This document shows, piece by piece, positions 3,181 to 56,458 of a DNA stretch of 57,671 nucleotides (within the stretch, counting starts at the first letter, position 1; each line of letters opens with the position of its first letter). The notes beneath the pieces were generated by a model that saw only the letters and a list, made by a program, of their open reading frames with translations, had not been told where the DNA came from and searched no databases. The position numbers and the translations under genes are program-made. Where the stretch lies: positions 1 through 57,671 of the IMG/VR virus record IMGVR_UViG_3300037861_000188. One strand, written 5' to 3'. This DNA is from a virus. Lineage: Duplodnaviria > Caudoviricetes.

Positions 3181-3181
3181 A

Positions 3182-12274: not shown

Positions 12275-12936
12275 GGGGTTTCTATTTCTTCGTTTAGGTA
12301 CTTTTCGAGTTGCTTGTTTAAAAAAGCATGGTGTTCATAGGATAATTTGACATCAGAATTAAATGTGAATGACATACCATAGGTATGTTGTATTTGAGGT
12401 ATTCTTATCATTGCGCCAGTCTGAACCTCAATCCTTTTCGGTAGCTTCTTAGCCCATTGGCCGTTAAGGTAGATTAACCATCGGCCAACGTATAAAGCAT
12501 TCTTTTCATTTTTGTATTTAAAAACAGTATCAGATATTTCGAATTTAATACCGCCCCAATCCTCAAACCTATCTCCATCCTTAATCTCACCGTACAATTC
12601 AAAAGCCTTAGCCTTTAGCTGGTTTACGTAGGATTCTTCTGTGGATGGTTTGAACCATTTCTTGTTAATCGACAATTCTACTAGCTTATTATCGACTATT
12701 CTAATGTTGATACTTGGTTCACCGGGCAAGTTGTTTAACACCTTGTAAATTTTCCTAGGCGATATCAATGATCCATCACCATCTACACAATCAACAAACT
12801 CCACCCCTTCCCAAATATCCTTTTTCTTATTGACCACCAAAAAGAAATTACTAAATTCCCCTGACTCATTGATAACATCAAATCCGTTCTGGTCACAAAA
12901 TGTTTTTAGTTTCTCGTACTCGCTATCGTTGCTCAT
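12271..12936 (-). CDS. Hypothetical protein
   Basis: 221-aa ORF; AACAGGAC immediately before ATG. Confidence 0.75.
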   Translation of the reverse strand: MSNDSEYEKLKTFCDQNGFDVINESGEFSNFFLVVNKKKDIWEGVEFVDCVDGDGSLISPRKIYKVLNNLPGEPSINIRIVDNKLVELSINKKWFKPSTEESYVNQLKAKAFELYGEIKDGDRFEDWGGIKFEISDTVFKYKNEKNALYVGRWLIYLNGQWAKKLPKRIEVQTGAMIRIPQIQHTYGMSFTFNSDVKLSYEHHAFLNKQLEKYLNEEIETP

Positions 12937-12985
12937 GTCCTGTTTTGGTTAAATTATACTTCTGTTTATTGACTTTTAAAAGGTT

Positions 12986-14316: not shown

Positions 14317-14714
14317 AATTTGTCCTGTTCGTTTGTTGTTGAAAATTGTTTGCTCGAAAAAATCTCTGTGATTCCGTCACATCCCCGGTTGAGCTGGAAT
14401 TGAACTGCTTCAATCTTGCCTTTCAAAACATCATCCACCATTACTAGAATCTGCTGCTGCTGAAGAGGTGTAAGCCTTCCCAATGGGGGCTTGGTATCAT
14501 CGTAGGCAAGGATTGTCTTCTGGTAGGCAAGCAGGTAGTTCTTTGAGTTCTGGTATCGCTCCTTACTCATCCGCATTGCCTTCCCGTGATAAATGGTGTC
14601 GGTAATCTCCAAAAGATCCAGTACCATCTTCCTAAAATTCCCCACTACATAGCCTGGATTATACCCTTCTTCTGTGCTGTGAAATCGTGTTTTATCCGGA
14701 TCGTAATCGCTCAT
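14313..14714 (-). CDS. Hypothetical protein
   Basis: 133-aa ORF, first gene of a leftward operon from the AT-rich divergent region. Confidence 0.65.
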   Translation of the reverse strand: MSDYDPDKTRFHSTEEGYNPGYVVGNFRKMVLDLLEITDTIYHGKAMRMSKERYQNSKNYLLAYQKTILAYDDTKPPLGRLTPLQQQQILVMVDDVLKGKIEAVQFQLNRGCDGITEIFSSKQFSTTNEQDKL

Positions 14715-14818: not shown

Positions 14819-14823
14819 AAACT

Positions 14824-15417
14824 ATGAGCAGGACAAACCCATACGAAAAATACCTCACCAAAGAAGATATTATGCACGCTGAAATAGTGCGTGTTATAGA
14901 ACTCAGGTTTCCGGACCTGTTCTGGTGGCATACTCCCAACGAAGGCAAGCGAAGTGCATTTGAGCAGTACAAGTTCAAGACGCTCGGAGGTAAAAAAGGA
15001 GTTTCTGATTTCGTTATTCTCGAAGATTCAAATTTCTCCAAAGGATTGATGATGGAAATCAAATACGGAGGAAATGGCTGTTCAAAGGCTCAAGTGGATT
15101 TCCTGATTGACTCGATTAACAAAGGCTACACGAGTGCAGTGGTGTACAACCATGCTTCGGATGCAATTGCCCTGCTTGAAAGGCATATGGGTCCCGGTGC
15201 TTGTTTCCCCCTAGATGGAATTCTACTTATAAAGGAGGGGAAGGAGTCCATTATTCAGATTGAACAAGCGCATAAAGTGTTGATGAAAAAATCAACTCCT
15301 GTTTCAGACAAGCAGCAAGCTAAGAAGCTGTTTGAAGCTGAGGCAAAGAAGAAGTTTGGCAGTGTCTCGGTGCAGGTTAAAAAAGCCCTGTTTCAGGGAA
15401 AGGATATTAAAGTTTGA
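14824..15417 (+). CDS. VRR-NUC (PD-(D/E)XK) nuclease / resolvase
   Basis: WWHTPNEGKR, GGKKGVSDFVIL, LMMEIKYG, SKAQVDF. Confidence 0.85.
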   Translation: MSRTNPYEKYLTKEDIMHAEIVRVIELRFPDLFWWHTPNEGKRSAFEQYKFKTLGGKKGVSDFVILEDSNFSKGLMMEIKYGGNGCSKAQVDFLIDSINKGYTSAVVYNHASDAIALLERHMGPGACFPLDGILLIKEGKESIIQIEQAHKVLMKKSTPVSDKQQAKKLFEAEAKKKFGSVSVQVKKALFQGKDIKV

Positions 15418-15463: not shown

Positions 15464-15547
15464 TGATTTGAGGTTTGGTATTGCCTTTCAGTACCCGGTC
15501 TATGACCGATTGATTTTTATTTTACGAACAGGACAAACAACACTACA

Positions 15548-34198: not shown

Positions 34199-34218
34199 GG
34201 CTGGTGTGGTTTAAACGC

Positions 34219-35304: not shown

Positions 35305-35339
35305 TTGTCCTGTTATTACTTTTTTCGTAAGCCAAGTTA

Positions 35340-37471: not shown

Positions 37472-37780
37472 CTAGTTATTAACCGCCAAATTCCTAAGCA
37501 AATCATCTTCATCTTCAATTTCGTTAAGAGCTTCAAGAAAACAGGAAAGAAACACTTTTCCCGATAAGCTGCGCTGTATTCTTAATTCTGTTACAACAAA
37601 AATACAGGTACTTTGAATATACTCCCTCACATATTCTTCGATTGCATCTTCTGGGTCAATAAAATCGGTCAAAAAGACCTGATCTCCGAAAAGTGGTCTG
37701 AAATTCATAAGTGTATCAAAATAATGAGCCTCTATTTCTCCTTCTGGTGTAATCGTTTCGATTTCAAATTGTACTTTCAT
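37472..37780 (-). CDS. Acidic hypothetical protein
   Basis: 102 aa, D/E-rich; AACAGGACA directly before ATG. Confidence 0.7.
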   Translation of the reverse strand: MKVQFEIETITPEGEIEAHYFDTLMNFRPLFGDQVFLTDFIDPEDAIEEYVREYIQSTCIFVVTELRIQRSLSGKVFLSCFLEALNEIEDEDDLLRNLAVNN

Positions 37781-37826
37781 TGTCCTGTTTTTTAGTGGTT
37801 AGCAAAAGGGCCGAAGACCTGTTGAT

Positions 37827-38189: not shown

Positions 38190-38263
38190 AATATCCTTTT
38201 TTTTACTGTTAAAATTATAATTTACCGATTTACCCACGGGTAAACACTTTTATAAATTTCACT

Positions 38264-38851: not shown

Positions 38852-38980
38852 GTTGTAAATATAATAACTCTTTTCGTAAAAAAAATTACATTTTGCTTTG
38901 ATCTTATTATTACTTGTAGTAATATTACTCAACGAACAGGACAAACCGAGGAATAGCGGACAAACTAAACGATAAGGATT

Positions 38981-39379: not shown

Positions 39380-39424
39380 TCATTCACGGGGGAGCAATCC
39401 CCCACTAACCAAACAGGACAAAAC

Positions 39425-42790: not shown

Positions 42791-43283
42791 CGATACTCAA
42801 TCCATCATTTATTGCTACCGATGGCAGTATTGATAATTCAATCGGACTAGATGCTACATGGAAATACTTTTTACCGATATCAATGTAGAAATCATCCTCA
42901 TACTGTTTCATTTTAAAGCCAATGGCTTGCTTAATCTCCAACTCTGGCGCAAATATGATCTGTGGCGAATTGTAAGGCTTTCCGAACCATACCCGTAGGG
43001 ATGCTTTGTCACCTGCTTTCCATCGGGACCCATTTCGGATTGTATGCTTTTTTTCACCCTCAGCAATATTGTTCAATGAGTGCTGGAAGTGAATTAAATC
43101 GTATGTGGTAAGTTTTTTATCCTCTAATGATTTCAGGTTCCATCGCTGAAGATTGAAGATATATTCCCTATCGCAAGAATTTATCCCTAACGAATTCAAG
43201 ACCTGCTCCACAAAGAAGGTAGGTTGTCCTACTTTCGGGTGATATGTCGGAAACTTACGGCTGAATGTGATTACTTTAGCCAT
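42711..43283 (-). CDS. ASCH/PUA-like hypothetical protein
   Basis: KKHTIR..RWKAGD..RVWFGKPYNSPQ..VAINDGLS pattern. Confidence 0.6.
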   Translation of the reverse strand: MAKVITFSRKFPTYHPKVGQPTFFVEQVLNSLGINSCDREYIFNLQRWNLKSLEDKKLTTYDLIHFQHSLNNIAEGEKKHTIRNGSRWKAGDKASLRVWFGKPYNSPQIIFAPELEIKQAIGFKMKQYEDDFYIDIGKKYFHVASSPIELSILPSVAINDGLSIDDLLSWFQYPKPFEGQILCWREVHYA

Positions 43284-43665
43284 TGTCGGCCTCCTTTCCT
43301 TTCAGCTCAGGGTTATCGAATATGTTCCCGATTACCTCGCAACGCCCTGCGTCTACCGCTTCGCCAAAATAATGATCGTACATCCATCCTTTTGATTGTA
43401 GGGCAAAGGAAGCAAGATGCTTGCTCCAGAGCACTCTGAGTTTGTTTTCTAAGTTTGTCGTTTGTAGGACATCGCCTTCAAAGATTTTTACTTTATTTTT
43501 ACCTATCAGCCCGGTAAACTGGCCTACTGATTCGGGGATTACTTCATGCCCCCACCATTCATCAGGATATGAGGTTTTAACATGAATTTGTCCACCCATC
43601 AACTCCCCTTCTACCCATTTTCCGGTGCCAACTATTTTGCCTCGGAATAAAATTTCTCTAGACAT
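43276..43665 (-). CDS. YopX family protein
   Basis: REILFRGK, VGQFTGL, IFEGDVL, EVIGNIFDNPEL. Confidence 0.9.
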   Translation of the reverse strand: MSREILFRGKIVGTGKWVEGELMGGQIHVKTSYPDEWWGHEVIPESVGQFTGLIGKNKVKIFEGDVLQTTNLENKLRVLWSKHLASFALQSKGWMYDHYFGEAVDAGRCEVIGNIFDNPELKGKEADNG

Positions 43666-43933: not shown

Positions 43934-43966
43934 CTTAGTTTTTATTTGCCCTGTTCAATTATTTGT

Positions 43967-45715: not shown

Positions 45716-46186
45716 TTAAAATGGTAGCGTGTCCTCATAGTTGTCAGGACCATCCATAGGTGGACTGCTCTGAGGGGACTGATTAATACTGGCGTGCGTT
45801 GTGCTGTTATCGCCTTTGCTTTGGTAGGATTGTCTGCTGTCCTCGGTTTGGTCGCTCTGTTTGCTTCCCAGCATAGTGAAGGAGGTGACCCGGATCTTTA
45901 CCCTGCTGAACTTATGCCCGTCCTTTTCCCATTTTTCAGTTTTGATCTTTCCTTCTACATAGAGTTGGCTTCCTTTCTTGAGGTACTGCAATGCGATTCG
46001 TGCTTGCTGTCCCCATATCTCCAGGTCATGCCACTCGGTATTCTCAACCTTGTTGCCTTGCTTGTCTTTATAGGACTCGGTAGTAGCTAATGTGATGTTG
46101 GCTACTACATTATCTCCTTCAAATTGCTTGAGCTCCGGGTCTTTGCCCAAATTGCCTAATAGGATTACCTTATTTACTGCTGCCAT
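45716..46186 (-). CDS. ssb: Single-stranded DNA-binding protein
   Basis: VNKVILLGNLGKDPE, TEWH, LKKGSQLYVEGKI, acidic tail EDTLPF; alternative in-frame ATG at 46294. Confidence 0.95.
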   Translation of the reverse strand: MAAVNKVILLGNLGKDPELKQFEGDNVVANITLATTESYKDKQGNKVENTEWHDLEIWGQQARIALQYLKKGSQLYVEGKIKTEKWEKDGHKFSRVKIRVTSFTMLGSKQSDQTEDSRQSYQSKGDNSTTHASINQSPQSSPPMDGPDNYEDTLPF

Positions 46187-46334
46187 ATTATTTTTTAGTC
46201 TTTGATTTTCTGGTTTTATTTCGATTCTTGTTTGCGCCAATGCCCGTGCCTCAATGGTCATGGTTTCTGTTGTTTCTAATGCGTGATGCAGCATTGCCCT
46301 GTTTTTGTTTAAGTGTGAAATATTAATTTTGATT

Positions 46335-46961
46335 TTATCCTTCTCTTGACATTTGCTCGTTTCCGGCACATACTCCCGAACAGAATTCGAGACTTGTTGT
46401 GGTGACACAAGCCTTATCTTCGTATCTGTTTTTCCACGAATTCCATACTTGCTTTCTTCCTCGTCCAATTATATTTGAGGTGACTTTTTGCTCATTGGGA
46501 GTCTGCTTCATACAATAGCTACACGCGAAATGGTTTTCTCTCGGGGCGTATTTAGCCATCATTTCAGCTAATATTGGCTCAAGCAACTCTTTATTAAATG
46601 AAATATTGGGCTTATCTCCTACCCCTATCTCGTTGTAGCTTACCGCTGAGGTGGATGTGTATTCGCCATCAGTCGTAAACTTGTATTCGACTAGGACTTC
46701 GTTTGGGATATATGCATCAATAAATCTTTTCAGTTCAGCCACATCTGTTTTCTTGGCAATCTTATCGATCCAAGGTCTATTTTTCATTTTTTCCCTCGTT
46801 CGGAATTTTACTACTTCAATCTGAATAATCCCTATCACCCATCCATATAGCCTGAATAATTGAGTAGGCTTTACATTTTCCTTGAAGAACTCAGTCAGGT
46901 AATCCTCTTCCTTTTTCTCCAAAATGAGCTGTAGTTCATTCCATTGGTCTATTAGTTTCAT
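46335..46961 (-). CDS. Hypothetical protein with Zn-finger-like C-terminus
   Basis: CSYC ... FCSGVC. Confidence 0.7.
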   Translation of the reverse strand: MKLIDQWNELQLILEKKEEDYLTEFFKENVKPTQLFRLYGWVIGIIQIEVVKFRTREKMKNRPWIDKIAKKTDVAELKRFIDAYIPNEVLVEYKFTTDGEYTSTSAVSYNEIGVGDKPNISFNKELLEPILAEMMAKYAPRENHFACSYCMKQTPNEQKVTSNIIGRGRKQVWNSWKNRYEDKACVTTTSLEFCSGVCAGNEQMSREG

Positions 46962-47686
46962 AAGAATGGTGTTTTGTTAAGTTGAATTTCTGTTCCCGGA
47001 CTTGCGATGGCTACGGTTTTGCCCGTTGCTGCCAAGGTTCGTTGCAGGAATGATTCTGGATCCGCATTTCCGCTGCTTAGGTGAATGAGAATGATATTGT
47101 TTACCTCCGATAAATCATTTGCTTTCAGGAAGTCTAGCGTGGTCTGAAGGCTCATGTGGCTCTTCATGGTCCGTGCCCGTACTACTGCGTTCAAGCTGCC
47201 GTCCAGGAATCGCTTGGTCATTATTTCCTCGCAATAGTTTGCCTCGATGATGATATTGTTCATTCCTTTGAAAGTGTATGGGCAATAATGCGTATCGGTG
47301 ATGAAGCAGGTCTTTCCGCTTTCGGGATGGTCCAGTAGAAAACCAAACGTGGGCACATCGTGGATCACTGAAAATGGCTTAATCTTCCATGGACCAATAG
47401 TCAACTGCTTGCCGGACTCCATCTGGATAAATCGATGCCCTTCTAGCCCGTTGGTTGCATCTGTGTACACGTCAATCCCTGCTTTCATGTAATCGCTGGC
47501 GTACTTGATATGATCCCCGTGCCTGTGGCTGATAAGGCACCCTTGGACTCCGGATAAATCGAAGTCCAAGGCTTTCTTAACTTCCTTGAGTCGGACTCCT
47601 GCTTCCAGGATCAGGCAGTTCCCTCCGCTGTCCTGAAGGAGATAGCCATTTCCTGCACTCGATGAGCCAAGGACGATCAGTCTCAT
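46958..47686 (-). CDS. MBL-fold metallo-hydrolase (exonuclease partner of RecT)
   Basis: LGSSSAGN, SHRHGDH, HDV, ITDT, IEANY, IHLS. Confidence 0.9.
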   Translation of the reverse strand: MRLIVLGSSSAGNGYLLQDSGGNCLILEAGVRLKEVKKALDFDLSGVQGCLISHRHGDHIKYASDYMKAGIDVYTDATNGLEGHRFIQMESGKQLTIGPWKIKPFSVIHDVPTFGFLLDHPESGKTCFITDTHYCPYTFKGMNNIIIEANYCEEIMTKRFLDGSLNAVVRARTMKSHMSLQTTLDFLKANDLSEVNNIILIHLSSGNADPESFLQRTLAATGKTVAIASPGTEIQLNKTPFL

Positions 47687-48585
47687 GCGAATGATGGAGA
47701 TTCTGCCTGTACTGCTTCTGCTGCCACTGCTTTTGGTTCTGCAGTTGGCTTTGACGAAATTTCCTCGTGTTCATCAAAATCCATGGACACTGAATTCGCT
47801 TTATACTTTGCCTCGGAATTCTGCCCGGCCTTTGCTGTAGTTTCAGAATCATCATTATCATCATCAAACAGGTGCGCATCGTCACTGGTACTGGCTGCGT
47901 GTTTCAGGGCACGGTTTCGGACGGTCTTACATGCCATTTCATCAGGAAATTTGGTGTGAGCTGGCGTTAAACCATTTCCTTTTCGCTGGTTCCATGCGGC
48001 ATGAATTTGAGGCTTGGTCATGATGGTGAGTTCTCTTCTTCCGTCATTGTAATCAACAGTGCAATAAGCCCCTTTAATTTTGGTGCCGTCACCGATGGAC
48101 TCCAAAGTCTGCTTGTGCTGCGTGATTCGCTTATTCCCAGTCTCGGCATCTACTTCAAAGGAGAATTCATCCCCTTCATAGATTGCGCTGGCTGATACGT
48201 TTTTCACCCCCCCGGCACGCTTTGCAATCAGTTCCTTACCATGGTAGCTGATTGAACATTCCAGTTTCCCACCGTATGCGATGAAGTAACACTGGTCTTT
48301 GATCACCGACAAACCATTGGTAAGCATTTTCAACAATGCCTGTCCTACAGATGCTGGCGTACATACCGTCAATACAGGATGACTATCCTTATCAACTGCC
48401 TCCGATAAATAAAGCCATGCAGAATTTAGGGCATTTACCGGGCTGTAGTTCTTTGGAAATTGACCTTCCCCTCCCTCTTGTGTTTGCTTGATGATGGAAA
48501 GGACTTTTTCCTTTACCTTCTCTTGCCTTACCGCTAATTCCTTTTTAGCGTCTTTTACTGGTGCTTGATTGTTGTCCTGTGACAT
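47683..48585 (-). CDS. recT: RecT-family single-strand annealing recombinase
   Basis: QCYFIAYG, IYEGDEF, IKGAY, FPDEMACKTVRNRALK. Confidence 0.9.
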   Translation of the reverse strand: MSQDNNQAPVKDAKKELAVRQEKVKEKVLSIIKQTQEGGEGQFPKNYSPVNALNSAWLYLSEAVDKDSHPVLTVCTPASVGQALLKMLTNGLSVIKDQCYFIAYGGKLECSISYHGKELIAKRAGGVKNVSASAIYEGDEFSFEVDAETGNKRITQHKQTLESIGDGTKIKGAYCTVDYNDGRRELTIMTKPQIHAAWNQRKGNGLTPAHTKFPDEMACKTVRNRALKHAASTSDDAHLFDDDNDDSETTAKAGQNSEAKYKANSVSMDFDEHEEISSKPTAEPKAVAAEAVQAESPSFA

Positions 48586-48623
48586 TTTTGTTTTTGATTA
48601 TATAAAGTGAATGATTGATTTGT

Positions 48624-50669
48624 CTACTGCCAATGTAGGGTTAGCTTCTCTTGGGAAGGGTCCACCACTAGGTTGATCAGTTGGCTCTTTGTTTCGGGAA
48701 TCCACGTTACAGACTCTCGGTTGTCGATGAAAATCGGGAGATACAGCTTGTAATGATCCGATAAGGTGTTGATGATGTCAAGCCCTGCCTGAATCCTTCC
48801 TGCGTTGTTCAGGTCGCTGAATGGGACTCCCTTGAACAGGGTTTCACATACCTCTTTTTCAGCGCCGTTTAGCGGCATGTAGAAAAGCTTGAAGCTGACC
48901 AATGAGAACTTGGCGTTGATCTCTGACTCGATCATTTCAACCCTTGCTTTGGAATAAGTGAAGCAAGCATCCTCCATACCCTCCGCCTCGGAAATTTTCT
49001 GACCGATTATTTTTTCAGAATCTTTGAGTTCCTGAATCCGGATATCTATCTTTTCAATGGTTTCCTTGTTGCCAAGGGCCTTTTGAAGTCCTTCCAGGCT
49101 GGTTTGAATAGCAATCTTAGTTGTCTTCAATTCTGACGTGTTCACTTCCTGAGACTTAATAGGCTTGTTGGATTCCAGTTTTGCGATATCCTGAATTAGG
49201 AATGTTGCTGTTTGGGATTGAAAATCATCTACTGTCTTTTTATCCTGTGGATTGGCGTACCACTCCTTTAAGGAGGCTTCAAGCGTGATTAAATCTTCTT
49301 TTTTTACGGAAAGGAAAGCCTCGGAATCAGACTTGCTTTTTGAGGTAGCCCGGATTGCGTTATTTGAAGATTCAATATCCTTCTGGGAACCTTCAATCTG
49401 ATTTTTCAGCCTCATGCCCTTCTGGGTGATTTCAGCCTTTCGGTCTGTTTTATCTTTGTTGAACCGCCCTCTTGCTGCTTCCTCAGCATTGAATAACATA
49501 TCACCTTCCAATGGACGTTCGCAAGACGGGCAGGATGAACCGTTCCACATGAATTCCTTGGCGTTCTCTTTCTGCCATTCTGCTACAAGTGCCGCTTTCT
49601 CCGTTTCTTTGGAAGGAATTGATAATCCGGATGTTTCGATATCAGATTTATGTCGCTGTATCTGACCAACATAGGTCTTTATTGAGTTCTCAGCATTTAG
49701 CGCATACTCATTCAGCTCCTTGATTTTAGCCTGAATCTCCCTTGGAGACTTCTCGCTATCATTCTTCCACTTTTCAAAATCCTGCTGCGCTAGGAATTTA
49801 AGCTTCTGAAGCTTTGATTTTGCCTCATAGATTTTATTTTCCCACTCCTGAATAGATTTGTTGTAGACCGAATCTGAATTACTCAAAGTTCGAATCGATA
49901 ACTCTACCTCTTCGAGCTCATTTTTTTTGCCTGCAATGATTTCCTGAAGCTCGCTGAACTCATAAGCCTCTTCTGGCTTCGACCTTTCGGCCTCGCTAAT
50001 TTTTACGGGAATATCTGCTTTTTCCTCTTTGAGGTTCTTTTTTTCCATTGCGGCCTTCGCACGGATCTGATCGAGATTCCTACCTATGGTCAACAGTTCC
50101 TCCAACTCTTTAATGTGAGGGGACTTCTTTGACTTTGAAGTAAGTCCCTCAAAAATCTGTGCCGTGCTGATTTCCGATGCCATGGAAATAAGGGCTTCTC
50201 TTCGGTCTGCTGGCTTCATGGAGTTGAAGAATAGCGGATTGGTCAGGAGTTTGAAAAGCTCCTCTTTGAAAAACTCCTCTACCTGCTTGCGGTAGTTGGA
50301 TTCCAGTGTTACAGGGAATCCATCGATTTGATAAGCGGTAGTATGGCCTTTCAATACTCCCTCTTTGCTCCACAATTGCTTGTAGGTTCTTTGGAAGGTC
50401 TTAGACTCGCTATCAATCTGGAAGGCTGCAAAGACCTCATGGTCCACTTTCTCAATTGGATTGTTGTTAGCATCCAATGTCTTGATACCGAAGTCTGATC
50501 TTCCTAGACTGTCTTTTCCGAAGAAAAGGAACCAAACGCTGTCGAATACGGTGGTCTTACCGCTTGCGTTTTTGCCGTGAAGGAAGTTCTCACCTTCCTG
50601 AAAATCCATTTCTAAGGACTTAATGCCTTTGAAGTGGGATAGTTTTAACTTTTTGAGTTCTACTTTCAT
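48624..50669 (-). CDS. SMC/Rad50-like coiled-coil ATPase
   Basis: GKNASGKTT, CPSC hook, LNNAGRIQAGLDII, PIFIDNRES. Confidence 0.9.
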   Translation of the reverse strand: MKVELKKLKLSHFKGIKSLEMDFQEGENFLHGKNASGKTTVFDSVWFLFFGKDSLGRSDFGIKTLDANNNPIEKVDHEVFAAFQIDSESKTFQRTYKQLWSKEGVLKGHTTAYQIDGFPVTLESNYRKQVEEFFKEELFKLLTNPLFFNSMKPADRREALISMASEISTAQIFEGLTSKSKKSPHIKELEELLTIGRNLDQIRAKAAMEKKNLKEEKADIPVKISEAERSKPEEAYEFSELQEIIAGKKNELEEVELSIRTLSNSDSVYNKSIQEWENKIYEAKSKLQKLKFLAQQDFEKWKNDSEKSPREIQAKIKELNEYALNAENSIKTYVGQIQRHKSDIETSGLSIPSKETEKAALVAEWQKENAKEFMWNGSSCPSCERPLEGDMLFNAEEAARGRFNKDKTDRKAEITQKGMRLKNQIEGSQKDIESSNNAIRATSKSKSDSEAFLSVKKEDLITLEASLKEWYANPQDKKTVDDFQSQTATFLIQDIAKLESNKPIKSQEVNTSELKTTKIAIQTSLEGLQKALGNKETIEKIDIRIQELKDSEKIIGQKISEAEGMEDACFTYSKARVEMIESEINAKFSLVSFKLFYMPLNGAEKEVCETLFKGVPFSDLNNAGRIQAGLDIINTLSDHYKLYLPIFIDNRESVTWIPETKSQLINLVVDPSQEKLTLHWQ

Positions 50670-50742
50670 TGTCCTGTTCGTTTATTTAAATTGTCTGATT
50701 TCCTTTTTTACCTGCGATTGGCTTTTCTGCCGTTTCAGGTAG

Positions 50743-51036
50743 TTATTCCCTCTCAGAGGTGGTTGGATCTTGTAATTTCCTAGCATCTGATGTTGCGATC
50801 TGAAGCTTTGCCCTCAGCTCGTTTCGGTTTTCCACAACCGCAACGAGTACGGTTAAAATTTTGTCATTTTCGCATACCCCGTTTAGTACTGCGTAGACGT
50901 TTTGCCTTTTAGGAAGCTCAGTTTCCGGTTGAGTTGATTCCCATATCTTGTCAAAGGCCCTTTTGTAGTGTCCAGGAAGAGCATTTTTCAGCTCCTCTAG
51001 GTCTTTAGCAGTAAATAGCTTTTTGTTATTTTCCAT
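50743..51036 (-). CDS. Small putative DNA-binding protein, first gene of the early operon
   Basis: RQNVYAVLNG helix typical of Cro-like proteins; preceded by a promoter. Confidence 0.6.
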   Translation of the reverse strand: MENNKKLFTAKDLEELKNALPGHYKRAFDKIWESTQPETELPKRQNVYAVLNGVCENDKILTVLVAVVENRNELRAKLQIATSDARKLQDPTTSERE

Positions 51037-51065
51037 ACGTTTATATTTTCTACCTTAGTGTTTAC

Positions 51066-51073
51066 CAAATGTA
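51066..51073 (-). promoter_or_regulatory. -7 promoter box of the early replication/recombination operon
   Basis: TACATTTG on the minus strand in an AT-rich gap. Confidence 0.65.
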
Positions 51074-51194
51074 TATAAATAATTAGAAACGTAACATAAA
51101 AGAATTAAAAATAATTAAGAAAATATATAAATATCTGATAATTAAGGATAAAAATTATGGTGCAGGGGAATAAAAGTTGATTGAAAAAAATGCC

Positions 51195-51287
51195 TACAAA
51201 CCAGAAGACCCAGCCAAAAGGCCGGGTCTGTTGAAAAGTTCGAACAGGACAATTCTAACTTAGCATTGTTAGCTTTCGCTAACGACT
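51195..51287 (-). ncRNA. Candidate multi-target antisense small RNA (sRNA-1)
   Basis: 5' hairpin GUUAGC-GAAA-GCUAAC, unpaired seed AUUGUCCUGUUCG (51241-51253), terminator AGACCCGGCC-UUUU-GGCUGGGUCU; seed complementary to about 12 gene starts. Confidence 0.75.
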
Positions 51288-51295
51288 CAAATATA
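51288..51295 (-). promoter_or_regulatory. -7 promoter box of sRNA-1
   Basis: TATATTTG on the minus strand directly upstream of the 5' hairpin. Confidence 0.65.
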
Positions 51296-51314
51296 ACTCA
51301 TTTTTATGAAACGC

Positions 51315-51818
51315 TTACACTTTTTTTCGGAATGCCCTGATAATCCTAAACACAATATAGGAAAGGATGACTAGGCCAAATAATACCAAGCCTGTTTTGA
51401 CAAACTTCCAAGCCCGTTGAAAAAGATTCTCTCTCTCCCTAATTACAATTCTTTCAAATTCCGTCCTTAGCAATTCCCTTTCCTCAATCATGACGGTGAT
51501 CATTCTTTCCTGTTGATCGCATACAGCCATCAAATTGCCCAGGCTGTCAATCAAGATACCGACCCTCATCTTTGTGTCCGGATCTTCCCTATATAAAGTT
51601 CGCTCGATTATTTTTGGATCCACACCTGAGCGGATCATTTTTGCCAAACTGTCTATATTTATTTTAAAGCTCTCTCCGGAAGTTCCAGGCACTAGCACCT
51701 CTTTTTCAACTGTTCGGAAAATAACAGAATCCCTGACTATCCTTTCGCTCTGCAGAACTTTTGGGGCACTGCAACCAGCCATTAAAACTGCGAGTATTAT
51801 TATCTTGAGGTAATCCAT
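51315..51818 (-). CDS. Unimolecular spanin-like lipoprotein
   Basis: Lipobox LMAG-C plus C-terminal TM helix; follows the endolysin. Confidence 0.7.
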   Translation of the reverse strand: MDYLKIIILAVLMAGCSAPKVLQSERIVRDSVIFRTVEKEVLVPGTSGESFKINIDSLAKMIRSGVDPKIIERTLYREDPDTKMRVGILIDSLGNLMAVCDQQERMITVMIEERELLRTEFERIVIRERENLFQRAWKFVKTGLVLFGLVILSYIVFRIIRAFRKKV

Positions 51819-52465
51819 CGAAGAGCTTTTAGAGTTTGCTCAATCCTATCGTCCAGCCCATTCCTGCCACCATTAATAAGAATACTAACCCTTTCTATGG
51901 TTTGCTCCTTCATGTCAACACAAGCCTTAAAAATGTTATTTTCGTCAAAGAAAAATTTAGCACTTTCTAAGGCATACTTTGCAGCAACCAAATCCGGATT
52001 GGATAATATTAAAGGATCTCCAATTCTTTTAGAAAGGCTCGAATAATTATTTCTGCCTGTCAACTGAATAACTCCCCTACCCCTGAATCTGTAGCCATCT
52101 CCAGACTGTGTTGAGCCATTGCCCATCCTGTTTGCATAAACCACATTTGCAATTTCTTTGGGCTTATTAGCATACTCACTAGCCAACATTTTTAAGTTAG
52201 CTTTCCCCTGACTTCTGTCAACAATTTTTTGTTCCTTGGTTGTGAAATACTTCCCAAAGATTTTTAGTAGACCATCTTGGCTATAATTTAGATTTTCTTC
52301 CACTATTGAAAACCCTGCGCTTTCATGCCAGCATTGTCCTATAAAATGAGATCCTGCCACTGGACTAAGTTTTAAAAAAACCACCAATGCTTTGGCTGAT
52401 TTTGGGCCAAAATCTCCATCTGGCACAACTCCTATTTTTGATTGTATTCTTTTTATAGATTCCAT
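51800..52465 (-). CDS. Endolysin, glycoside hydrolase family 19
   Basis: HFIGQCWHESAGF, ENLNYS, YANRMGNG, DGYRFRGRGVIQLTGRNNY, INGGRNGLDDR; N-terminal peptidoglycan-binding DGDFG. Confidence 0.95.
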   Translation of the reverse strand: MESIKRIQSKIGVVPDGDFGPKSAKALVVFLKLSPVAGSHFIGQCWHESAGFSIVEENLNYSQDGLLKIFGKYFTTKEQKIVDRSQGKANLKMLASEYANKPKEIANVVYANRMGNGSTQSGDGYRFRGRGVIQLTGRNNYSSLSKRIGDPLILSNPDLVAAKYALESAKFFFDENNIFKACVDMKEQTIERVSILINGGRNGLDDRIEQTLKALRWITSR

Positions 52466-52472
52466 TCTATTT

Positions 52473-53021
52473 CTAATCTAGGTTATTGTTTTCATTTTCT
52501 TTGTTTTTCTTAAAAAATCTTAACACAAACTTTTTTGGATTCACGAAACTGTCAATCATCTCAAACTGCTCTTTGGTAATAAAGTTAAGATCTCTCGCAT
52601 TTTCGACACTAGAGTATATTATTGACAAACTAAAAACCAAAAAAAGACCTTCAATAAATACTTTTTGAATAATTATAGGCGACACTAGGTGCAAATTATA
52701 CGTAATTCCAATAAACCAAGTCATTACAATAAACCGAATTGCTGACCTGTTTAGATTTGCCCATATGATCGGCTCCCCTTTATTTATAATTGAATTTGCT
52801 AATCCTAAAATAAAATCCCCGATTGAAATTATCGCCAGTAACCAGATTCCTGCGCTCGGTGAATAAATATACTTGCTTATCCCAATATCCAACTCTATAA
52901 ATATTGAAGCGATAAAGGAAAAGCTAATCGCATAAATGTGAATCATGCCCATTTTTACCTTTAGCGCAAAAACTGCCTTTATTAAATCCAAGAATGATTC
53001 GTAACCTATTACTTTGAACAT
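52473..53021 (-). CDS. Holin
   Basis: Multiple TM helices, SSVEN motif; directly upstream of the endolysin. Confidence 0.75.
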   Translation of the reverse strand: MFKVIGYESFLDLIKAVFALKVKMGMIHIYAISFSFIASIFIELDIGISKYIYSPSAGIWLLAIISIGDFILGLANSIINKGEPIIWANLNRSAIRFIVMTWFIGITYNLHLVSPIIIQKVFIEGLFLVFSLSIIYSSVENARDLNFITKEQFEMIDSFVNPKKFVLRFFKKNKENENNNLD

Positions 53022-53022
53022 T

Positions 53023-53475
53023 TTATATCTTTTTAGCTTCGATGAAGAAATTATCAGTTTGGTCTTCTGTCATTTCTAGCATACCTGCCATCGCTGCAAT
53101 GTGAATGTTATCCCGATCCCAACTAAGTGCATACTCCCAGAAAATAGTTAGTGCTTCATTGTTAGAATATTCAATAGAGGCTTTTACGGTTGACAATAAT
53201 CCCATTTGTAAGAGCATCATGCGCCCCTGAGCTGGAGTGATTGAGAAGGGAACGCTACTATTTCTAATCTCCAAATCTGTCAAAGCTACTATTTCATAAT
53301 TCTGAACACCGTTTATTACTTCTGTTTTTACAACCCTGCTTAGTAAGTAATCAATTTTTGGCTCGTTGTCAATGTACTCAAACCATCCAGATTCTACGAT
53401 TTGCTCGTGAGTAGGGTTTATCACGTTTGGAACTTCTGGATTTAATAGTATTTGACCTTCTTGATAGTATCTCAT
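53023..53475 (-). CDS. Tail fibre assembly-like protein
   Basis: VPFSITPAQGRMML, FWEYALSWDR, QTDNFFIEA. Confidence 0.65.
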   Translation of the reverse strand: MRYYQEGQILLNPEVPNVINPTHEQIVESGWFEYIDNEPKIDYLLSRVVKTEVINGVQNYEIVALTDLEIRNSSVPFSITPAQGRMMLLQMGLLSTVKASIEYSNNEALTIFWEYALSWDRDNIHIAAMAGMLEMTEDQTDNFFIEAKKI

Positions 53476-53479
53476 AGTT

Positions 53480-54277
53480 TTAGAATATTTCGTAACGTTG
53501 ATTTATATTTGCCTCAATAGCTAATCTGTTGGCAGTTTGATTGAAATTATACATTATTATTTCGCTTATTTTGCCGTTAAAATGCAGTCCTCCTTGAGGT
53601 CTTGAAATGGTGTTTACTGAAAACTGATTAAAGGACTGCAAATTAAAACTGTTGCTAGAATTTATATTTACCTGAAAATTTAAAGTATTGTTAAAATAAG
53701 AAACTAACTGCTGGTTAAATGAAATAAATTGAGACCCTACTGACCTAAGATTTGCTCCATCAATCCCACCTGGGCCATTCCCTTGTTGACCATACCAAAA
53801 ACCTCTTGCGGGGCTGTTTGCAAATAAGATATAATTGAGATTTCCTATTGTATCAATTTTCGCCACTGTAAATATTGATAAAGGAGTAATGCTTTGAAAG
53901 TTTAAAACTTTACTTTCATTATTAAAAAGTATTGAGGGCTTCCCGTTTGATAAAATCAAATCCCCATTCTCAACTATTTGGGGTTGATTAATCAATACTG
54001 TTTGTGTAGCCTTTATACTATTTCCGCTTTGGTCATACAGGATTGAAACAAAACCGTTATTTCCAGCTCCTACAAACTGAGTCAATAGCCCTGATAATAT
54101 ATCCTTTTCGCTAAAATCTTGCTCTGCGTTGTCCGAAGACCTCCGAACTCTGACAACTGCATTTATGAATTTTGATAAGGATTGCAAAGAAAAAGCCGCA
54201 GAAGCGTTTGGAAACAAATCTAAAAGACCTAATTTTTGAAATGACTGAATCCTACTTTGTAAATCGCTAAGTCTCAT
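53480..54277 (-). CDS. LamG/concanavalin-like receptor-binding protein
   Basis: AAFSL..VRVRRSSDNAEQDF, LYDQSGN, FNGKISEIIMYN. Confidence 0.75.
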   Translation of the reverse strand: MRLSDLQSRIQSFQKLGLLDLFPNASAAFSLQSLSKFINAVVRVRRSSDNAEQDFSEKDILSGLLTQFVGAGNNGFVSILYDQSGNSIKATQTVLINQPQIVENGDLILSNGKPSILFNNESKVLNFQSITPLSIFTVAKIDTIGNLNYILFANSPARGFWYGQQGNGPGGIDGANLRSVGSQFISFNQQLVSYFNNTLNFQVNINSSNSFNLQSFNQFSVNTISRPQGGLHFNGKISEIIMYNFNQTANRLAIEANINQRYEIF

Positions 54278-54279
54278 GA

Positions 54280-54897
54280 TTAAATATTATTAATTGAGCC
54301 GTAAACTATAATATTACCTACCGAATTAATTGTGCACGGCAGTTCAAACCTTGGTCCTATAATACTAGGGGATGCACCACCTGCAAACTTTGTCCCTAAA
54401 GGAAAAGTAATTGACTGAACATTAGTAAATCGCAAAGAAAACGCTGTTTCCCTGCTTGCTATTGGAAGTCCTGTAAAGGATAAAGTAACTGTACCCGTTA
54501 AGGTTGCAAGTATCAAGGTTCCCAAAGTAAGGTTTATACCAACTGACCCTACTATATTGCCTAAATTCTGAATAGAGGACTGAATTGATAATGCAGCACT
54601 TTCAGCATCTACTTTTGAAGCAAGTGCCGACGCTGCATCCTCCACCGTTTGCGCTGCTTTTTGGGTAGCTACCTGCTCAGATGCTCCTGCATCGAGAGCC
54701 GATGCAGCTGCGGCTTGGGCGGCGGCAAGTACCTCGCCGGTGATGGGTGATTGAATGAATTTCAAGGTCTGTAGCCACTCGGATTCAGCCCCTACAAAAC
54801 CATTTTTCACGGCAATATCATAGGCAGATATCACCGCTTTCTGACCTGTAATCCCTAGAACAATAGGGTTTTGAATGGTTAATTGACTGCTGCTCAT
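54280..54897 (-). CDS. Short tail fibre/adapter protein
   Basis: SAYDIAVKNGFVGAESEWLQTL motif, Ala-rich coil, beta C-domain. Confidence 0.7.
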   Translation of the reverse strand: MSSSQLTIQNPIVLGITGQKAVISAYDIAVKNGFVGAESEWLQTLKFIQSPITGEVLAAAQAAAASALDAGASEQVATQKAAQTVEDAASALASKVDAESAALSIQSSIQNLGNIVGSVGINLTLGTLILATLTGTVTLSFTGLPIASRETAFSLRFTNVQSITFPLGTKFAGGASPSIIGPRFELPCTINSVGNIIVYGSINNI

Positions 54898-54899
54898 GG

Positions 54900-55244
54900 T
54901 TATGGTATTAAGATTACATGCATGATTAATTCCTTTATTAAGTAAAATGGCCCCCTGCCAAGTGTGTTCACAAGTCCATTGGAAGAAGTAATCTCAAGTT
55001 CCCAATTGAAGGGTCCTGATTTCCCTGTTGTGTCGGCAGGCTGAAAGTTTATAGTCAGTTCTTGCCCGTTAACCGTACAGTCTTCAAGTGTTTTCAAGAC
55101 AAAAACCATATTCCTGAGCGCAATGGCAAATTTGATCGTTGCCCCTATCATCGGATGAGTGTTGGGAATTGTAATGACGATATCAAAGCTATCCCCTGCC
55201 TGTCGGGTGATTAGGATTTCCTCTTGTACAATGTATGATGGCAT
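54900..55244 (-). CDS. BppU-like N-terminal domain tail protein
   Basis: QAGDSFDIVI, INFQPADT, NWELEIT, TLGRG. Confidence 0.6.
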   Translation of the reverse strand: MPSYIVQEEILITRQAGDSFDIVITIPNTHPMIGATIKFAIALRNMVFVLKTLEDCTVNGQELTINFQPADTTGKSGPFNWELEITSSNGLVNTLGRGPFYLIKELIMHVILIP

Positions 55245-55275
55245 ACTGATATTAGGTTATAGCTGACTGGAAATG

Positions 55276-55355
55276 AAAAAAGACATACCTCCTAGATGGA
55301 AGTATGGCCTGAATGGGCTATTATGTGTTGATTTTTAATCGATTCGACTAATTTA
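55276..55355 (-). promoter_or_regulatory. Promoter-like TAAATTAG box plus conserved leader element, copy 4
   Basis: Minus strand TAAATTAG (55348-55355), ATAATAGCCC, hairpin AGGCCATACTTCC...GGAGGTATGTCT-TTTTT. Confidence 0.6.
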
Positions 55356-55390
55356 GTGATTTTTTAGGTTGTTGGTGCTATTAGACGTAA

Positions 55391-56458
55391 TTATAGCGTC
55401 TGTTGAAATTTATTCCAATCTGAAGCCGCTATTGTTGATAAATCACTAGGAAACGTAGTATATTCTGATTTATGAAGTCCAATATTGGTGATCAATTTTA
55501 TACGAGATGCAGTTCTTGGAACTCCTAATATACCCTGTGGTGAATAGGAATTGCCGTGATAAATATTATTTCCATTTAGATAAAAGGATCTAGCAATTCC
55601 TCTACCTGGGATTACTTCAAGAAATCTATTTGCAGAAAATGAAAGCGCATAAAGATTTCCATTAGGAGCTAACTGTAAATTCCCATAAAAAGCAGAACCG
55701 CCTAGCCCGCTTATATTTAATTGAACGCTGGTTTGATTTACTGGATCAAGAATTAAAACTGTATTTGCTATTAATGGAGCATAATATATTTTATTGTCTA
55801 ATCCGTTACATCCGTTAATCCACCTAACTGAGCTATTACCAAAATTTCCAAACGTGGTTATTGCCTCTGTCGTTAGGTCAATCTTCCTAAATGCAAAATG
55901 AGCGGTTGGTGGTTGATAAATACAGTTGTCAGAAAACAAAACGCCCCCAAGATTTCTATTTGCCACAATTTCACCAAAAGTAGTTATTGTGTTTAATGCT
56001 GTATCTATTCTTGTAATATTTGTGGCTTGCCAAGGAATCATATAAAGAAAACCATCACTTGCAATTACCCCACCATTAAACTTACCCTCTGATCCCCCAC
56101 TAAAACCAGCAATGTATTGAAATGTGAAATTTATCACATCGTAAACTATTATATGACTAGCATTATATGGAATGAAATACATCTTATTATTTGGGGCATA
56201 GACAACCCCCTGACAATATTGTCTGTTTCCTGCTCCTGTAATAGACCCAACGACTGCCGTATCAAATGGTATATCTGTAATTAATTTTGTTGACGGGTCA
56301 TATTCTCCAATATACCCTGCTGCTTGATATGGTGCGAAATAGGTTTTACCGTTTTGTGGACAATAAGCTCCACCAACAAATTCATTAGCAACCTGAGTTT
56401 GAGAAAAGGATAATATTCTTTTCTGATTAGCCGATCCCCCAAGTATATTATTATACAT
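55391..56458 (-). CDS. Beta-propeller receptor-binding protein
   Basis: About 40-45-aa repeats of GV.APNGK.YF.PY.A..I...D. Confidence 0.75.
   Translation of the reverse strand: MYNNILGGSANQKRILSFSQTQVANEFVGGAYCPQNGKTYFAPYQAAGYIGEYDPSTKLITDIPFDTAVVGSITGAGNRQYCQGVVYAPNNKMYFIPYNASHIIVYDVINFTFQYIAGFSGGSEGKFNGGVIASDGFLYMIPWQATNITRIDTALNTITTFGEIVANRNLGGVLFSDNCIYQPPTAHFAFRKIDLTTEAITTFGNFGNSSVRWINGCNGLDNKIYYAPLIANTVLILDPVNQTSVQLNISGLGGSAFYGNLQLAPNGNLYALSFSANRFLEVIPGRGIARSFYLNGNNIYHGNSYSPQGILGVPRTASRIKLITNIGLHKSEYTTFPSDLSTIAASDWNKFQQTL

What the first reader, a model, noticed from the sequence alone, without database searches (positions are those of the whole stretch)
51195..51295. Phage-encoded small RNA whose seed matches the translation starts of about 12 of the phage's own early/middle genes
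Seen: on the minus strand, a Bacteroidota -7 box TATATTTG (51288-51295) is followed by a GNRA hairpin (GUUAGC-GAAA-GCUAAC), an unpaired stretch containing AUUGUCCUGUUCG (51241-51253), and a 10-bp terminator hairpin whose G.U pair only forms on this strand. This is standard trans-acting sRNA architecture. It is the only copy I found where the transcribed strand carries the antisense of the CGAACAGGACAA motif; all start-proximal copies are in mRNA sense (next finding). Inference: one RNA acts as a translational master switch over recombination, replication and accessory genes. It sits right after the lysis cassette and right before the early operon, where a CI gene would be expected, and no CI or integrase is visible. 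It could shut off early genes late in infection or maintain a repressor-less carrier/immunity state. Known phage antisense RNAs (P1 C4, P4 CI, P22 Sar, lambda OOP) control one or a few loci; I do not recall a genome-wide seed regulon like this.
Basis: partly seen in the sequence, partly recalled or inferred. Interest (0 to 1): 0.95.

Follow-up and report, generated by a model that had tools for sequence, protein, structure and literature searches.

The report
Candidate phage anti-start-site small RNA
A salt-lake phage carries, between its lysis genes and its early genes, one perfect reverse copy of a 12-base motif that sits at about a dozen of its own gene starts; it may encode a small RNA that silences those genes, but expression is untested.

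Summary
CGAACAGGACAA and close variants occur 16 times (5.6 expected). Fifteen are in mRNA sense and about 13 lie at or near start codons. The one reverse copy (51241-51252) lies in the 278-nt gap between the lysis cassette and the early operon. On the minus strand it sits between a strong GNRA hairpin and a strong terminator. An exact copy on that strand is expected 0.0008 times per genome, so chance is excluded.

The start-site motif (core AACAGGA) is kept at gene starts in two more distant relatives (TerL 73-74%). It is rare in 80 other loci. It is therefore a selected, lineage-specific signal.

Whether an RNA reads it is not shown. I found no RNA data. The promoter-like box is a weak predictor. 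The terminator is needed by the lysis operon anyway. The seed hairpin is weak. The only relative that holds this junction is 96-98% identical. The two distant relatives break off before the junction, and their recorded parts hold the motif but no reverse copy.

My best reading is a roughly 90-nt minus-strand RNA, or the lysis-operon 3' end, that blocks ribosome binding (0.4). Rivals are a protein reader plus a deletion scar, stoperator-like DNA sites, and a cis anti-start element.

It would be a new variant of phage antisense control (P1 c4-like) with many targets.

The parts
51288..51295 (-). TATATTTG, a match to the Bacteroidota -7 promoter box TAnnTTTG (consensus recalled, not from a call). 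It ends 4 nt before the first hairpin.
   Evidence: It is a weak predictor: 57 copies in the window, 7 intergenic, and 4 of those 7 lie opposite to the neighbouring genes.
51308..51313 (-). CGTTTC, 12 nt upstream of the box. The same CGTTTC-N12-TAnnTTTG arrangement heads the early operon at 51066-51091.
   Evidence: 2 matches in the window, both here, against 0.04 expected; 0 of 100 shuffles give 2. The pattern was noticed post hoc.
51268..51283 (-). Stem-loop 1, GUUAGC-GAAA-GCUAAC (GNRA tetraloop); probable 5' end of the RNA.
   Evidence: -8.1 kcal/mol, z -5.0.
51236..51261 (-). Weak stem-loop 2 that presents UGUCCU in a 6-nt loop. It holds the 12-nt seed UUGUCCUGUUCG (51252-51241).
   Evidence: loop bases are unpaired with P 0.93-0.99.: -5.7 kcal/mol, z -1.7, not significant.
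51241..51252 (+). The only antisense-oriented exact copy of CGAACAGGACAA. With the next base (51253) it is complementary to -12..+2 of the SbcC-like gene start.
51206..51229 (-). 10-bp terminator hairpin with one G.U pair and loop UUUU. It also terminates the lysis operon.
   Evidence: -20.1 kcal/mol (z -4.9) on the minus strand, -16.0 on the plus strand.
51184..51205 (-). Interrupted U-rich tail, UUCUGGUUUGUAGGCAUUUUUUU.
50669..50680 (-). Target site, exact 12-mer. Its last A is the A of the ATG of the SbcC-like ATPase gene (48624-50669).
   Evidence: Duplex -22.3 kcal/mol.
48572..48583 (-). Target site, 9 nt, in codons 2-5 of the RecT-like gene (47683-48585).
46294..46305 (-). Target site AAAACAGGGCAA overlapping the ATG of the SSB gene (45716-46294). 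The A-to-G change would form a G.U pair with the seed.
43946..43957 (-). Target site TGAACAGGGCAA, 12 nt before the ATG of a 91-aa gene. Both changes are G.U-compatible. Relative G001 has A at the second of them.
39410..39421 (+). Target site CAAACAGGACAA, 3 nt before the ATG of a small ORF. G001 has the exact 12-mer here.
38933..38944 (+). Exact 12-mer, 36 nt before the ATG of the first gene of the plus-strand operon (38981).
37780..37791 (-). Target site AAAACAGGACAA overlapping the ATG of a 102-aa gene.
   Evidence: A cassette deletion in other populations joins at this motif (joint 37787 to 38199).
35305..35316 (-). Target site ATAACAGGACAA abutting the ATG at 35304 of the 300-aa gene after terL.
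15525..15536 (+). Exact 12-mer, 11 nt before the ATG of a 95-aa gene (15548).
14825..14836 (+). TGAGCAGGACAA at +2..+13 of the 197-aa gene (14824). The -7 box ends 5 nt before its ATG. Both changes are G.U-compatible.
14320..14331 (-). Exact 12-mer, 3 nt before the ATG of a 154-aa gene. The motif is kept at the orthologous start in G002 and G003.
12935..12946 (-). AAAACAGGACAT overlapping the ATG of a 221-aa gene.

Best explanation
The 278-nt gap between the lysis cassette and the early operon encodes a minus-strand regulatory RNA of about 85-100 nt. It is either started at the TATATTTG box or is the 3' end of the lysis-operon transcript. It ends at the 51229-51206 terminator.

Its middle part presents UGUCCU in a loop within the 12-nt seed UUGUCCUGUUCG. 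The seed pairs with the shared start-site motif (C/A)(G/A)AACAGG(A/G)CAA of about 13 phage mRNAs. These include the SbcC-like, RecT and SSB genes and several small accessory genes. The duplex covers the ribosome landing site or the first codons, so translation is blocked and the mRNA may be destabilised.

What is shown:
- the sequence complementarity;
- that the antisense copy is not chance;
- the flanking structures and their strand preference;
- selection on the target motif in the lineage.

What is inferred:
- that the RNA is made as a discrete species;
- that it pairs in vivo;
- that the effect is repression;
- its timing.
For: 1. One exact antisense 12-mer, against 0.0008 expected on that strand genome-wide and 6e-5 in intergenic DNA. 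The other 15 copies with up to 2 mismatches are all in mRNA sense.

2. It lies in non-coding DNA between two strong stem-loops that fold better on the minus strand. The 95 nt give -36.7 kcal/mol (z -4.6) against -29.3 on the plus strand. The terminator gives -20.1 against -16.0.

3. The centre of the seed is predicted open in a 6-nt loop, P unpaired 0.93-0.99. The review's passage on P1/P7 c4 RNA likewise places the complementary sequences, probably, within RNA loops (PMC12197685, passage read).

4. The target motif is a selected start-site element specific to this lineage. It sits at about 10 starts in G002 (TerL 73%) and at 7 starts in G003 (TerL 74%), including orthologous genes. ACAGGA lies in -20..-1 of only 10 of 2042 starts in 80 other loci, against 4 of 58, 4 of 74 and 5 of 47 in these three phages.

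5. Within the 9-nt core, the changes seen at start sites are A-to-G at 43946, 46294 and 14825. All three would keep pairing as G.U. Between the window and G001, two target sites differ. Both differences keep or gain pairing, while the seed is unchanged.

6. G004 shares only the lysis cassette (86-91% aa identity). It has neither the motif at its starts nor the element after the 167-aa homologue.

7. CGTTTC-N12-TAnnTTTG occurs only at this locus and at the early promoter (post hoc).
Against: - The -7 box is a weak predictor, and no canonical -33 element stands upstream (spacing rule recalled).
- The lysis operon needs the terminator whether or not an sRNA exists.
- Stem-loop 2 is not better than shuffles: z -1.7, matched by 15 of 200. 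Half of the seed is paired in it.
- A duplex-energy scan does not separate starts from gene interiors at moderate thresholds. 14 of 63 starts and 164 of 675 interior windows reach -16 kcal/mol or lower. Only the 8 motif sites, at -19.6 to -22.8, stand out.
- With G.U allowed there are 101 places with at least 9 contiguous pairs, so the G.U argument is weak.
- G002 keeps the motif but has no antisense copy. The pattern scan covered all 60,771 recorded bases. The mismatch scan and the RNA model covered 60,000 of them. G003 also has none in its 50 kb. Both records end before the junction.
- The 98% relative has 0 changes in the element, but only 4 in the other 172 nt of the gap. Conservation is therefore not informative.
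- A protein could read the motif instead.
Confidence: 0.4

Rival explanations
1. A protein reads the motif on mRNA: a phage-encoded translational repressor or sequence-specific endoribonuclease, working like T4 RegA or RegB. The reverse copy would then be a scar. It would be the start region of a lost plus-strand gene of the lysogeny module, deleted from an ex-temperate ancestor. The hairpins would simply be the lysis-operon terminator region.
For: - T4 RegB cuts an 11-nt consensus, GG*AGRAYARAA, in the translation initiation regions of many early genes. RegA binds many early starts (PMC3014915, passages read). A shared start-site motif therefore needs no RNA reader.
- In provirus G002 the same slot holds an integrase and a 143-aa ORF on the opposite strand to the early genes. 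That is the orientation of the reverse copy.
- On the plus strand the reverse copy follows a hairpin by 12 nt, as the 39410 site does.
- Gene cassettes come and go at the motif. G001 has an extra gene flanked by duplicated motif copies. One search shows the joint 37787 to 38199 in 3 of 4 runs.
Against: - A scar under no selection is a perfect 12 of 12, while only 4 of about 13 working sense sites are perfect.
- No flanking similarity to any other copy extends beyond the 12 nt.
- The 143-aa gene of G002 has no motif at its own start.
- No ORF follows the reverse copy.
- No RNA-binding or RNase domain was found in the 33 window proteins scanned: 10 against PHROGs, 25 against Pfam, 2 of them against both. 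Most of them are of unknown family.
Confidence: 0.2
2. The 12-bp sites are asymmetric DNA sites for a repressor, working like the stoperators of cluster A mycobacteriophages. The repressor would be encoded by temperate relatives or by this phage. The reverse copy is one more binding site near the early control region.
For: [quoted passage not shown] Their orientation correlates strikingly with the direction of transcription (PMC9283540, passages read).
- Here 15 of 15 non-locus copies follow the direction of transcription.
- Some copies sit right after -7 boxes, as at 14811-14836.
- Relative G002 is a provirus with a candidate repressor slot, and its motif variant differs: CGAACAGGAAA.
- HTH proteins are encoded in the window. 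The first early gene product has weak HTH-like leads, atlas scores 0.79-0.80, which are leads only.
Against: - Six sites abut or overlap the ATG. Selection on DNA binding alone does not predict that.
- No start-proximal site lies in the structural or late modules (1-11700, 17400-34200, 51300-57671). A lysogeny-wide silencer would be expected there.
- The window has no integrase and no homologue of the 143-aa ORF of G002.
- For stoperators, reversing a site abolishes repression. The one reversed site would then be inert for minus-strand transcription.
Confidence: 0.12
3. The reverse copy acts in cis. In transcripts that read through the lysis terminator, it pairs with the SbcC start 560 nt downstream (a 13-bp perfect inverted repeat, 51253-51241 with 50680-50668). 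Late read-through RNA would then not express the early recombination genes, while transcripts from the early promoter at 51066-51073, which lack the anti-sequence, are translated.
For: - The longest perfect complementarity, 13 nt, is with the nearest downstream target.
- Both lie on the same strand with only a terminator between them. The U-tract of that terminator is interrupted.
Against: - Thirteen base pairs across 560 nt is weak without further structure.
- It does not explain why a dozen distant starts share the motif.
- The terminator is strong, -20.1 kcal/mol.
Confidence: 0.08

Closest known systems
P1/P7 c4 antisense RNA (phage immunity RNA)
   Same: A small phage RNA that binds complementary sequences around a ribosome binding site of a phage mRNA and blocks translation. 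The complementary sequences are likely placed in RNA loops (PMC12197685, passage read).
   Different: - c4 acts on one operon (ant). Here about 13 dispersed starts share the target.
- P1 is temperate, and c4 is part of its immunity. This genome shows no integrase.
- No Rfam family, c4 included if Rfam 15 holds it (recalled), matches the window.
Trans-acting seed sRNAs of bacteria and prophages that occlude ribosome binding sites
   Same: A 5' stem-loop, a short exposed seed and an intrinsic terminator. The seed is complementary to translation initiation regions of several mRNAs.
   Different: The proposed regulon is the phage's own genes, unified by a dedicated 12-nt motif. It is not a set of host mRNAs with partial matches. 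Phage sRNAs in the papers listed (listings and abstracts only) act mainly on host targets or on single phage loci.
T4 RegB / RegA post-transcriptional shut-off of early genes
   Same: A phage-specific extended motif embedded in many early translation initiation regions is read by one phage factor to switch a gene class off (PMC3014915).
   Different: The T4 readers are proteins. Here no such protein is identified, and an antisense copy of the motif exists.
Stoperators of cluster A mycobacteriophages (L5 gp71)
   Same: Many copies of a 12-13 bp asymmetric motif lie in short intergenic spaces, oriented with transcription (PMC9283540).
   Different: Those are DNA sites for a lysogeny repressor, spread over the genome. 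Here the sites hug start codons, are missing from the late modules, and no matching repressor is seen.

Membership tests
Trans-acting base-pairing sRNA | Discrete transcript with its own 5' and 3' ends | not testable with these tools
   No run listed is on record as RNA. laid contigs only.
Trans-acting base-pairing sRNA | Promoter upstream | tested here: inconclusive
   A TAnnTTTG match stands at 51288-51295. But 4 of the 7 intergenic matches lie opposite to the neighbouring genes. A shared CGTTTC-N12 element links it to the early promoter (post hoc).
Trans-acting base-pairing sRNA | Intrinsic terminator on the RNA strand | tested here: met
   -20.1 kcal/mol, z -4.9, better than the plus strand. 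The U-tract is interrupted.
Trans-acting base-pairing sRNA | Accessible seed complementary to target start regions, beyond chance | tested here: met
   An exact 12-mer complement of 4 sites, and 9-12 nt complementarity to about 13 starts. Chance expectation is 0.0008. Six of the 12 seed bases are open.
Trans-acting base-pairing sRNA | Conservation or covariation of the RNA with its targets in relatives | tested here: inconclusive
   Found only in G001 (96-98% identical), where it is unchanged. The G002 and G003 records lack the junction.
P1/P7 c4-type immunity RNA | Sequence and structure homology to the described family | tested here: not met
   0 Rfam matches at gathering score over the window. 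The best relaxed hits over 51000-51400 are 15 bits against a gathering score of 55.
P1/P7 c4-type immunity RNA | Part of a lysogenic immunity system | tested here: not met
   No integrase was found among the window ORFs scanned. The relative G002 carries int and a 143-aa ORF in the same slot.
Stoperator system | Asymmetric sites oriented with transcription | tested here: met
   15 of 15 copies outside the locus are oriented with transcription.
Stoperator system | Sites spread through early and late operons | tested here: not met
   No start-proximal site lies in the structural or lysis modules.
Stoperator system | Cognate two-domain HTH repressor gene | tested here: inconclusive
   Only 73-74-aa HTH_3 proteins were found. 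The 143-aa ORF of G002 has no Pfam family.
RegB/RegA-like protein control | Phage-encoded RNA-binding repressor or RNase | tested here: inconclusive
   No such domain was found in the 33 window proteins scanned. Many small ORFs have no family.

The most novel reading that the evidence does not exclude
A virulent (ex-temperate) Bacteroidota-type phage carries a single small RNA in the slot where relatives have their integrase and repressor module. A 12-nt seed programmes translation of about a dozen of the phage's own recombination, replication and accessory genes. Each of those genes carries a dedicated, lineage-conserved 'address' motif at its start codon. This would be an RNA counterpart of T4 RegA/RegB, or of a lysogeny repressor. 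The address motif would also serve as the junction at which gene cassettes are exchanged.
Probability: 0.35. Interest if true: 0.8.

Novelty: new variant of a known kind. Interest (0 to 1): 0.6.

Why it matters
Phage antisense RNAs known so far act on one or a few loci. Class-wide post-transcriptional shut-off in phages is known only through proteins such as T4 RegA and RegB.

If this element works as proposed, it would show that a phage can wire a whole gene class to one RNA through a shared start-site address. It would do so in a host group that, by recalled and listed literature, largely lacks Shine-Dalgarno-led initiation, so what marks a start site there is itself an open question.

Even if the RNA proves inert, one finding is solid and unexplained. 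The start-site motif is conserved and lineage-specific (AACAGGA core, three lineages), and cassette junctions coincide with it.

Tried and rejected
**RNA evidence.** The look-up of sequencing runs listed 17 DNA holders, mostly salt-lake metagenomes, and no RNA holder. This says nothing about expression.

**Read laying, contigs of 4 runs.**
- Contigs cover the locus: X2 record 11 (46242-51969, 60 other letters), X10 record 5 (47683-51590, 118 other letters) and X3 record 18 (51060-52421, 65 other letters).
- Only 40 of 2008 differences are printed and none falls in 51037-51314, so I could not read the natural variation of the element.
- Loose ends at 51095 and 51134 in X2 show a mosaic junction between the terminator and the early promoter.

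**Search for relatives.**
- INPHARED DNA search of 48600-53500: no match.
- TerL protein search: best are Bacteroides phages at 37-39% identity. The one checked (BF1-TP2) has no enrichment of AACAGGA: 9+5 copies against control 8+6.
- 14-mer and 16-mer scans of IMG/VR: only G001 is related. The other 16-mer hits are an unrelated gene family or chance.
- The TerL profile found all the kin in IMG/VR: G001, a 7.6-kb fragment, G002 and G003.
- The RecT profile found only G002. The 97-aa profile found G001 and G002. The endolysin search found G004.

**Other tests.**
- A covariance model of the element found only itself and G001, at 130 bits. The next best hit was 15 bits.
- The duplex-energy scan was uninformative at moderate thresholds. 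Run counting with G.U allowed was noisy, 101 places.
- Protein atlas and PDB searches of the 97-aa first early protein gave only weak HTH-like leads.

**Readings rejected.**
- Motif as a promoter: at 3-4 sites it overlaps the ATG, so a transcript started after it would lack the start codon.
- Motif as a general Bacteroidota start signal or an extended Shine-Dalgarno sequence: 10 of 2042 starts elsewhere carry it. Only AGGA matches the 16S tail (tail sequence recalled).
- A hidden ORF at the locus: the 36-aa TTG frame at 51142-51252 runs through the terminator. The plus-strand frames after the motif are at most 24 aa.
- The apparent antisense hit in G002 at 1399: it lies inside a holin-like ORF.

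Supplementary files of papers were not consulted.

Full report
**What the window is.** The window is a complete IMG/VR virus record of 57,671 bp with direct terminal repeats. It comes from salt-lake metagenomes by the labels of the DNA runs that hold it. Its nearest cultured kin are temperate Bacteroides phages, at only 37-39% TerL identity. Promoter-like TAnnTTTG boxes, an integrase with Bacteroidota-type arm-binding domains in a relative and the taxa of look-alike proteins fit a Bacteroidota host. That host assignment is an inference.

**The locus.** Genes on both sides run on the minus strand.
- Upstream lie an endolysin (51800-52465, PHROG 181) and a 167-aa lipobox/TM protein (51315-51818).
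- Downstream lie a 97-aa first early gene (50743-51036), an SbcC-like ATPase (48624-50669), RecT, a hydrolase and SSB.

On the minus strand, the 278-nt gap (51037-51314) reads in this order:
- CGTTTC-N12-TATATTTG;
- a GNRA hairpin;
- AAUGCUAAGUUAGAA-UUGUCCUGUUCG-AACUUUUCAACA;
- a 10-bp terminator with one G.U pair and an interrupted U tail;
- an AT-rich stretch;
- a second CGTTTC-N12-TACATTTG, 30 nt before the ATG of the 97-aa gene.

- The 12-mer with up to 2 mismatches occurs 16 times against 5.6 expected; 0 of 100 shuffles reach 16.
- The 9-mer core occurs 10 times against 0.74 expected.
- Set against the ORF map, 15 of the 16 lie on the coding strand of the local gene. These include the five that lie in plus-strand blocks.
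- About 13 lie between -48 and +15 of a plausible start codon, and six of them abut or overlap the ATG.
- The only copy on the non-coding strand is 51241-51252.
- A first-order Markov model expects 0.0008 exact copies on that strand in the whole genome.

The copy therefore belongs to the motif family, by descent or by selection.

**Structure.**
- The 95-nt minus-strand RNA folds at -36.7 kcal/mol, z -4.6. The plus strand folds at -29.3.
- The signal comes from stem-loop 1 (z -5.0) and the terminator (z -4.9; -20.1 against -16.0 kcal/mol on the other strand).
- The seed lies in a weak hairpin that shows UGUCCU in its loop, P unpaired 0.93-0.99. The hairpin itself is no better than shuffles: z -1.7, matched by 15 of 200.
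- No Rfam family matches.

**What the target motif is.** It is not a promoter, because it overlaps the ATG at several genes. It is not a general host signal either. In 80 other SbcC-bearing loci, many from Bacteroidota, ACAGGA lies in -20..-1 of 10 of 2042 starts.

It is kept in the phage's kin:
- Provirus G002 (TerL 73%, SbcC 55%, syntenic) has (C/A)GAACAGGAAA at about 10 starts. All 22 copies of AACAGGA are in mRNA sense.
- Fragment G003 (TerL 74%) has AACAGGA(C/T)(A/T)A at 7 starts.
- Orthologous genes keep it while the rest of the leader has diverged. The clearest case is the gene at window 14316, G002 16551 and G003 14002.
- Between the window and G001 (4% mismatches over 29,316 aligned bases), two sites differ. 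One gains the exact 12-mer. The other swaps G for A at a wobble-compatible position.

The motif is also where cassettes are exchanged:
- G001 has an extra gene flanked by duplicated motif-bearing 25-mers.
- In 3 of the 4 runs laid, a contig lacks the gene at 37827-38189, with the joint inside the motif.

So the start-site motif is a functional element of this lineage. Something specific must read it.

**Does an RNA read it?**

Evidence in favour:
- the non-chance perfect antisense copy;
- its place on the transcribed strand of a non-coding gap;
- the flanking structures with their strand preference;
- the loop presentation;
- the wobble-compatible variants;
- the absence of both motif and element in G004, which shares only the lysis cassette at 86-91% aa identity;
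- the CGTTTC-N12 box shared with the early promoter (post hoc).

Evidence against, or neutral:
- The box is a poor predictor.
- The terminator is required anyway.
- The seed hairpin is weak.
- Energy scans do not separate starts from gene interiors, except at the exact motif sites.
- The G.U argument is statistically thin.
- The one relative that holds the junction is too close to be informative.

It is half met. Neither the recorded parts of G002 and G003 that I scanned nor a covariance-model search of those loci shows any antisense copy or homologue. Both records end before the lysis-to-early junction. In G002 the prophage is split exactly there: int and a 143-aa ORF sit beside the early operon, and the record stops in the lysis cassette.

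**Rivals.**
1. A protein reader of the RNA motif, as in T4 RegB or RegA, with the reverse copy as a scar of the lost lysogeny module. The orientation fits the 143-aa ORF of G002. But a perfect 12 of 12 scar with no flanking homology is odd, and that ORF has no motif.
2. Stoperator-like DNA sites. The orientation rule fits. The hugging of start codons, the absence from late modules and the lack of a repressor do not.
3. A cis anti-start element for the SbcC gene in read-through RNA.

I put the trans-acting or 3'-end RNA reading at 0.4, the rivals at 0.2, 0.12 and 0.08, and leave the rest open.

**Comparison with what is known.** It works most like the P1/P7 c4 RNA, which blocks a ribosome binding site through complementary sequences that are likely placed in RNA loops. 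It also resembles seed sRNAs in general. It is not a member of the c4 family: there is no homology, and there is no immunity context in this genome.

The distinguishing claim is one RNA for about 13 self-targets unified by a dedicated motif. I did not find this in the listings and abstracts of my two literature searches on phage sRNAs, nor in the passages I read of one review. Those searches are not exhaustive, and subscription papers are not covered.

**Verdict.** If true, it is a new variant of a known kind. Interest 0.6.

Noticed in passing
L002:~2560-2860 (G001) against window 50669-50742: The 98% relative has an extra small gene inserted between the 97-aa gene and the SbcC-like gene. It is flanked on both sides by the same motif-bearing sequence (TTTAAA(T)AACGAACAGGACAATGA). 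The start-site motif thus doubles as a cassette junction.
   Followed up: partly
window 37787-38199, 38928-39378, 46328-46965: Contigs of other salt-lake runs skip whole small genes at these places. The first joint lies inside the motif at 37780-37791, with 7 shared letters.
   Followed up: partly
L231:519-2227 (= G002 59474-60771): Provirus relative G002 carries a tyrosine integrase (Phage_integrase, Phage_int_SAM_5, Arm-DNA-bind_5) and a divergent 143-aa ORF of no Pfam family. They sit exactly where the window has the 278-nt gap, so the window phage looks like a derivative that lost its lysogeny module.
   Followed up: partly
window 51066-51091 and 51288-51313 (minus strand): CGTTTC-N12-TAnnTTTG occurs only at these two neighbouring places (0.04 expected). 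It could be a shared regulator site of the early promoter and the candidate RNA promoter.
   Followed up: partly
window 14811-14836; G002 ~17040-17064; G003 ~14490-14513: A TAnnTTTG box ends about 5 nt before the ATG of the first gene of the plus-strand block in all three phages. This suggests a leaderless or nearly leaderless mRNA.
   Followed up: no
window 38945-38975; G003 ~43185-43215: A conserved non-coding stretch CCGAGG(A/G)ATAGCGGA(C/T)AAACTAAAC lies between terS and the divergent plus-strand operon. The motif sits before it in the window and after it in G003.
   Followed up: no
G004 (L498) 2040-2080, 3240-3280, 3530-3566, 4870-4913, 12840-12880, 13130-13165: The unrelated phage that shares the lysis cassette has its own repeated leader, (TATATTTGTTC)AATCAGTTAATC, before many genes. 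It is a different promoter or leader repeat family.
   Followed up: no
window 42711-43283 and 43276-43665 starts; G002 47368, 47798, 2849 starts: A few overlapping genes carry canonical GGAGG-type Shine-Dalgarno sequences, in genomes whose other starts are A-rich and lack them.
   Followed up: no
window 40549-40773 and 41672-41893 (plus strand): Two small HTH_3 (Cro/CI-type) proteins are encoded in the plus-strand block (the first 4.9e-11, the second weak at 0.0016).
   Followed up: no
window 53-64, 57138-57149, 57597-57608: The same stretch of at least 32 nt (…CAACTGCCGTTACCCCAAACAGTACGGGGCAG…) occurs three times. Two copies belong to the terminal repeat, and one is internal, about 460 nt before the right end.
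   Followed up: no
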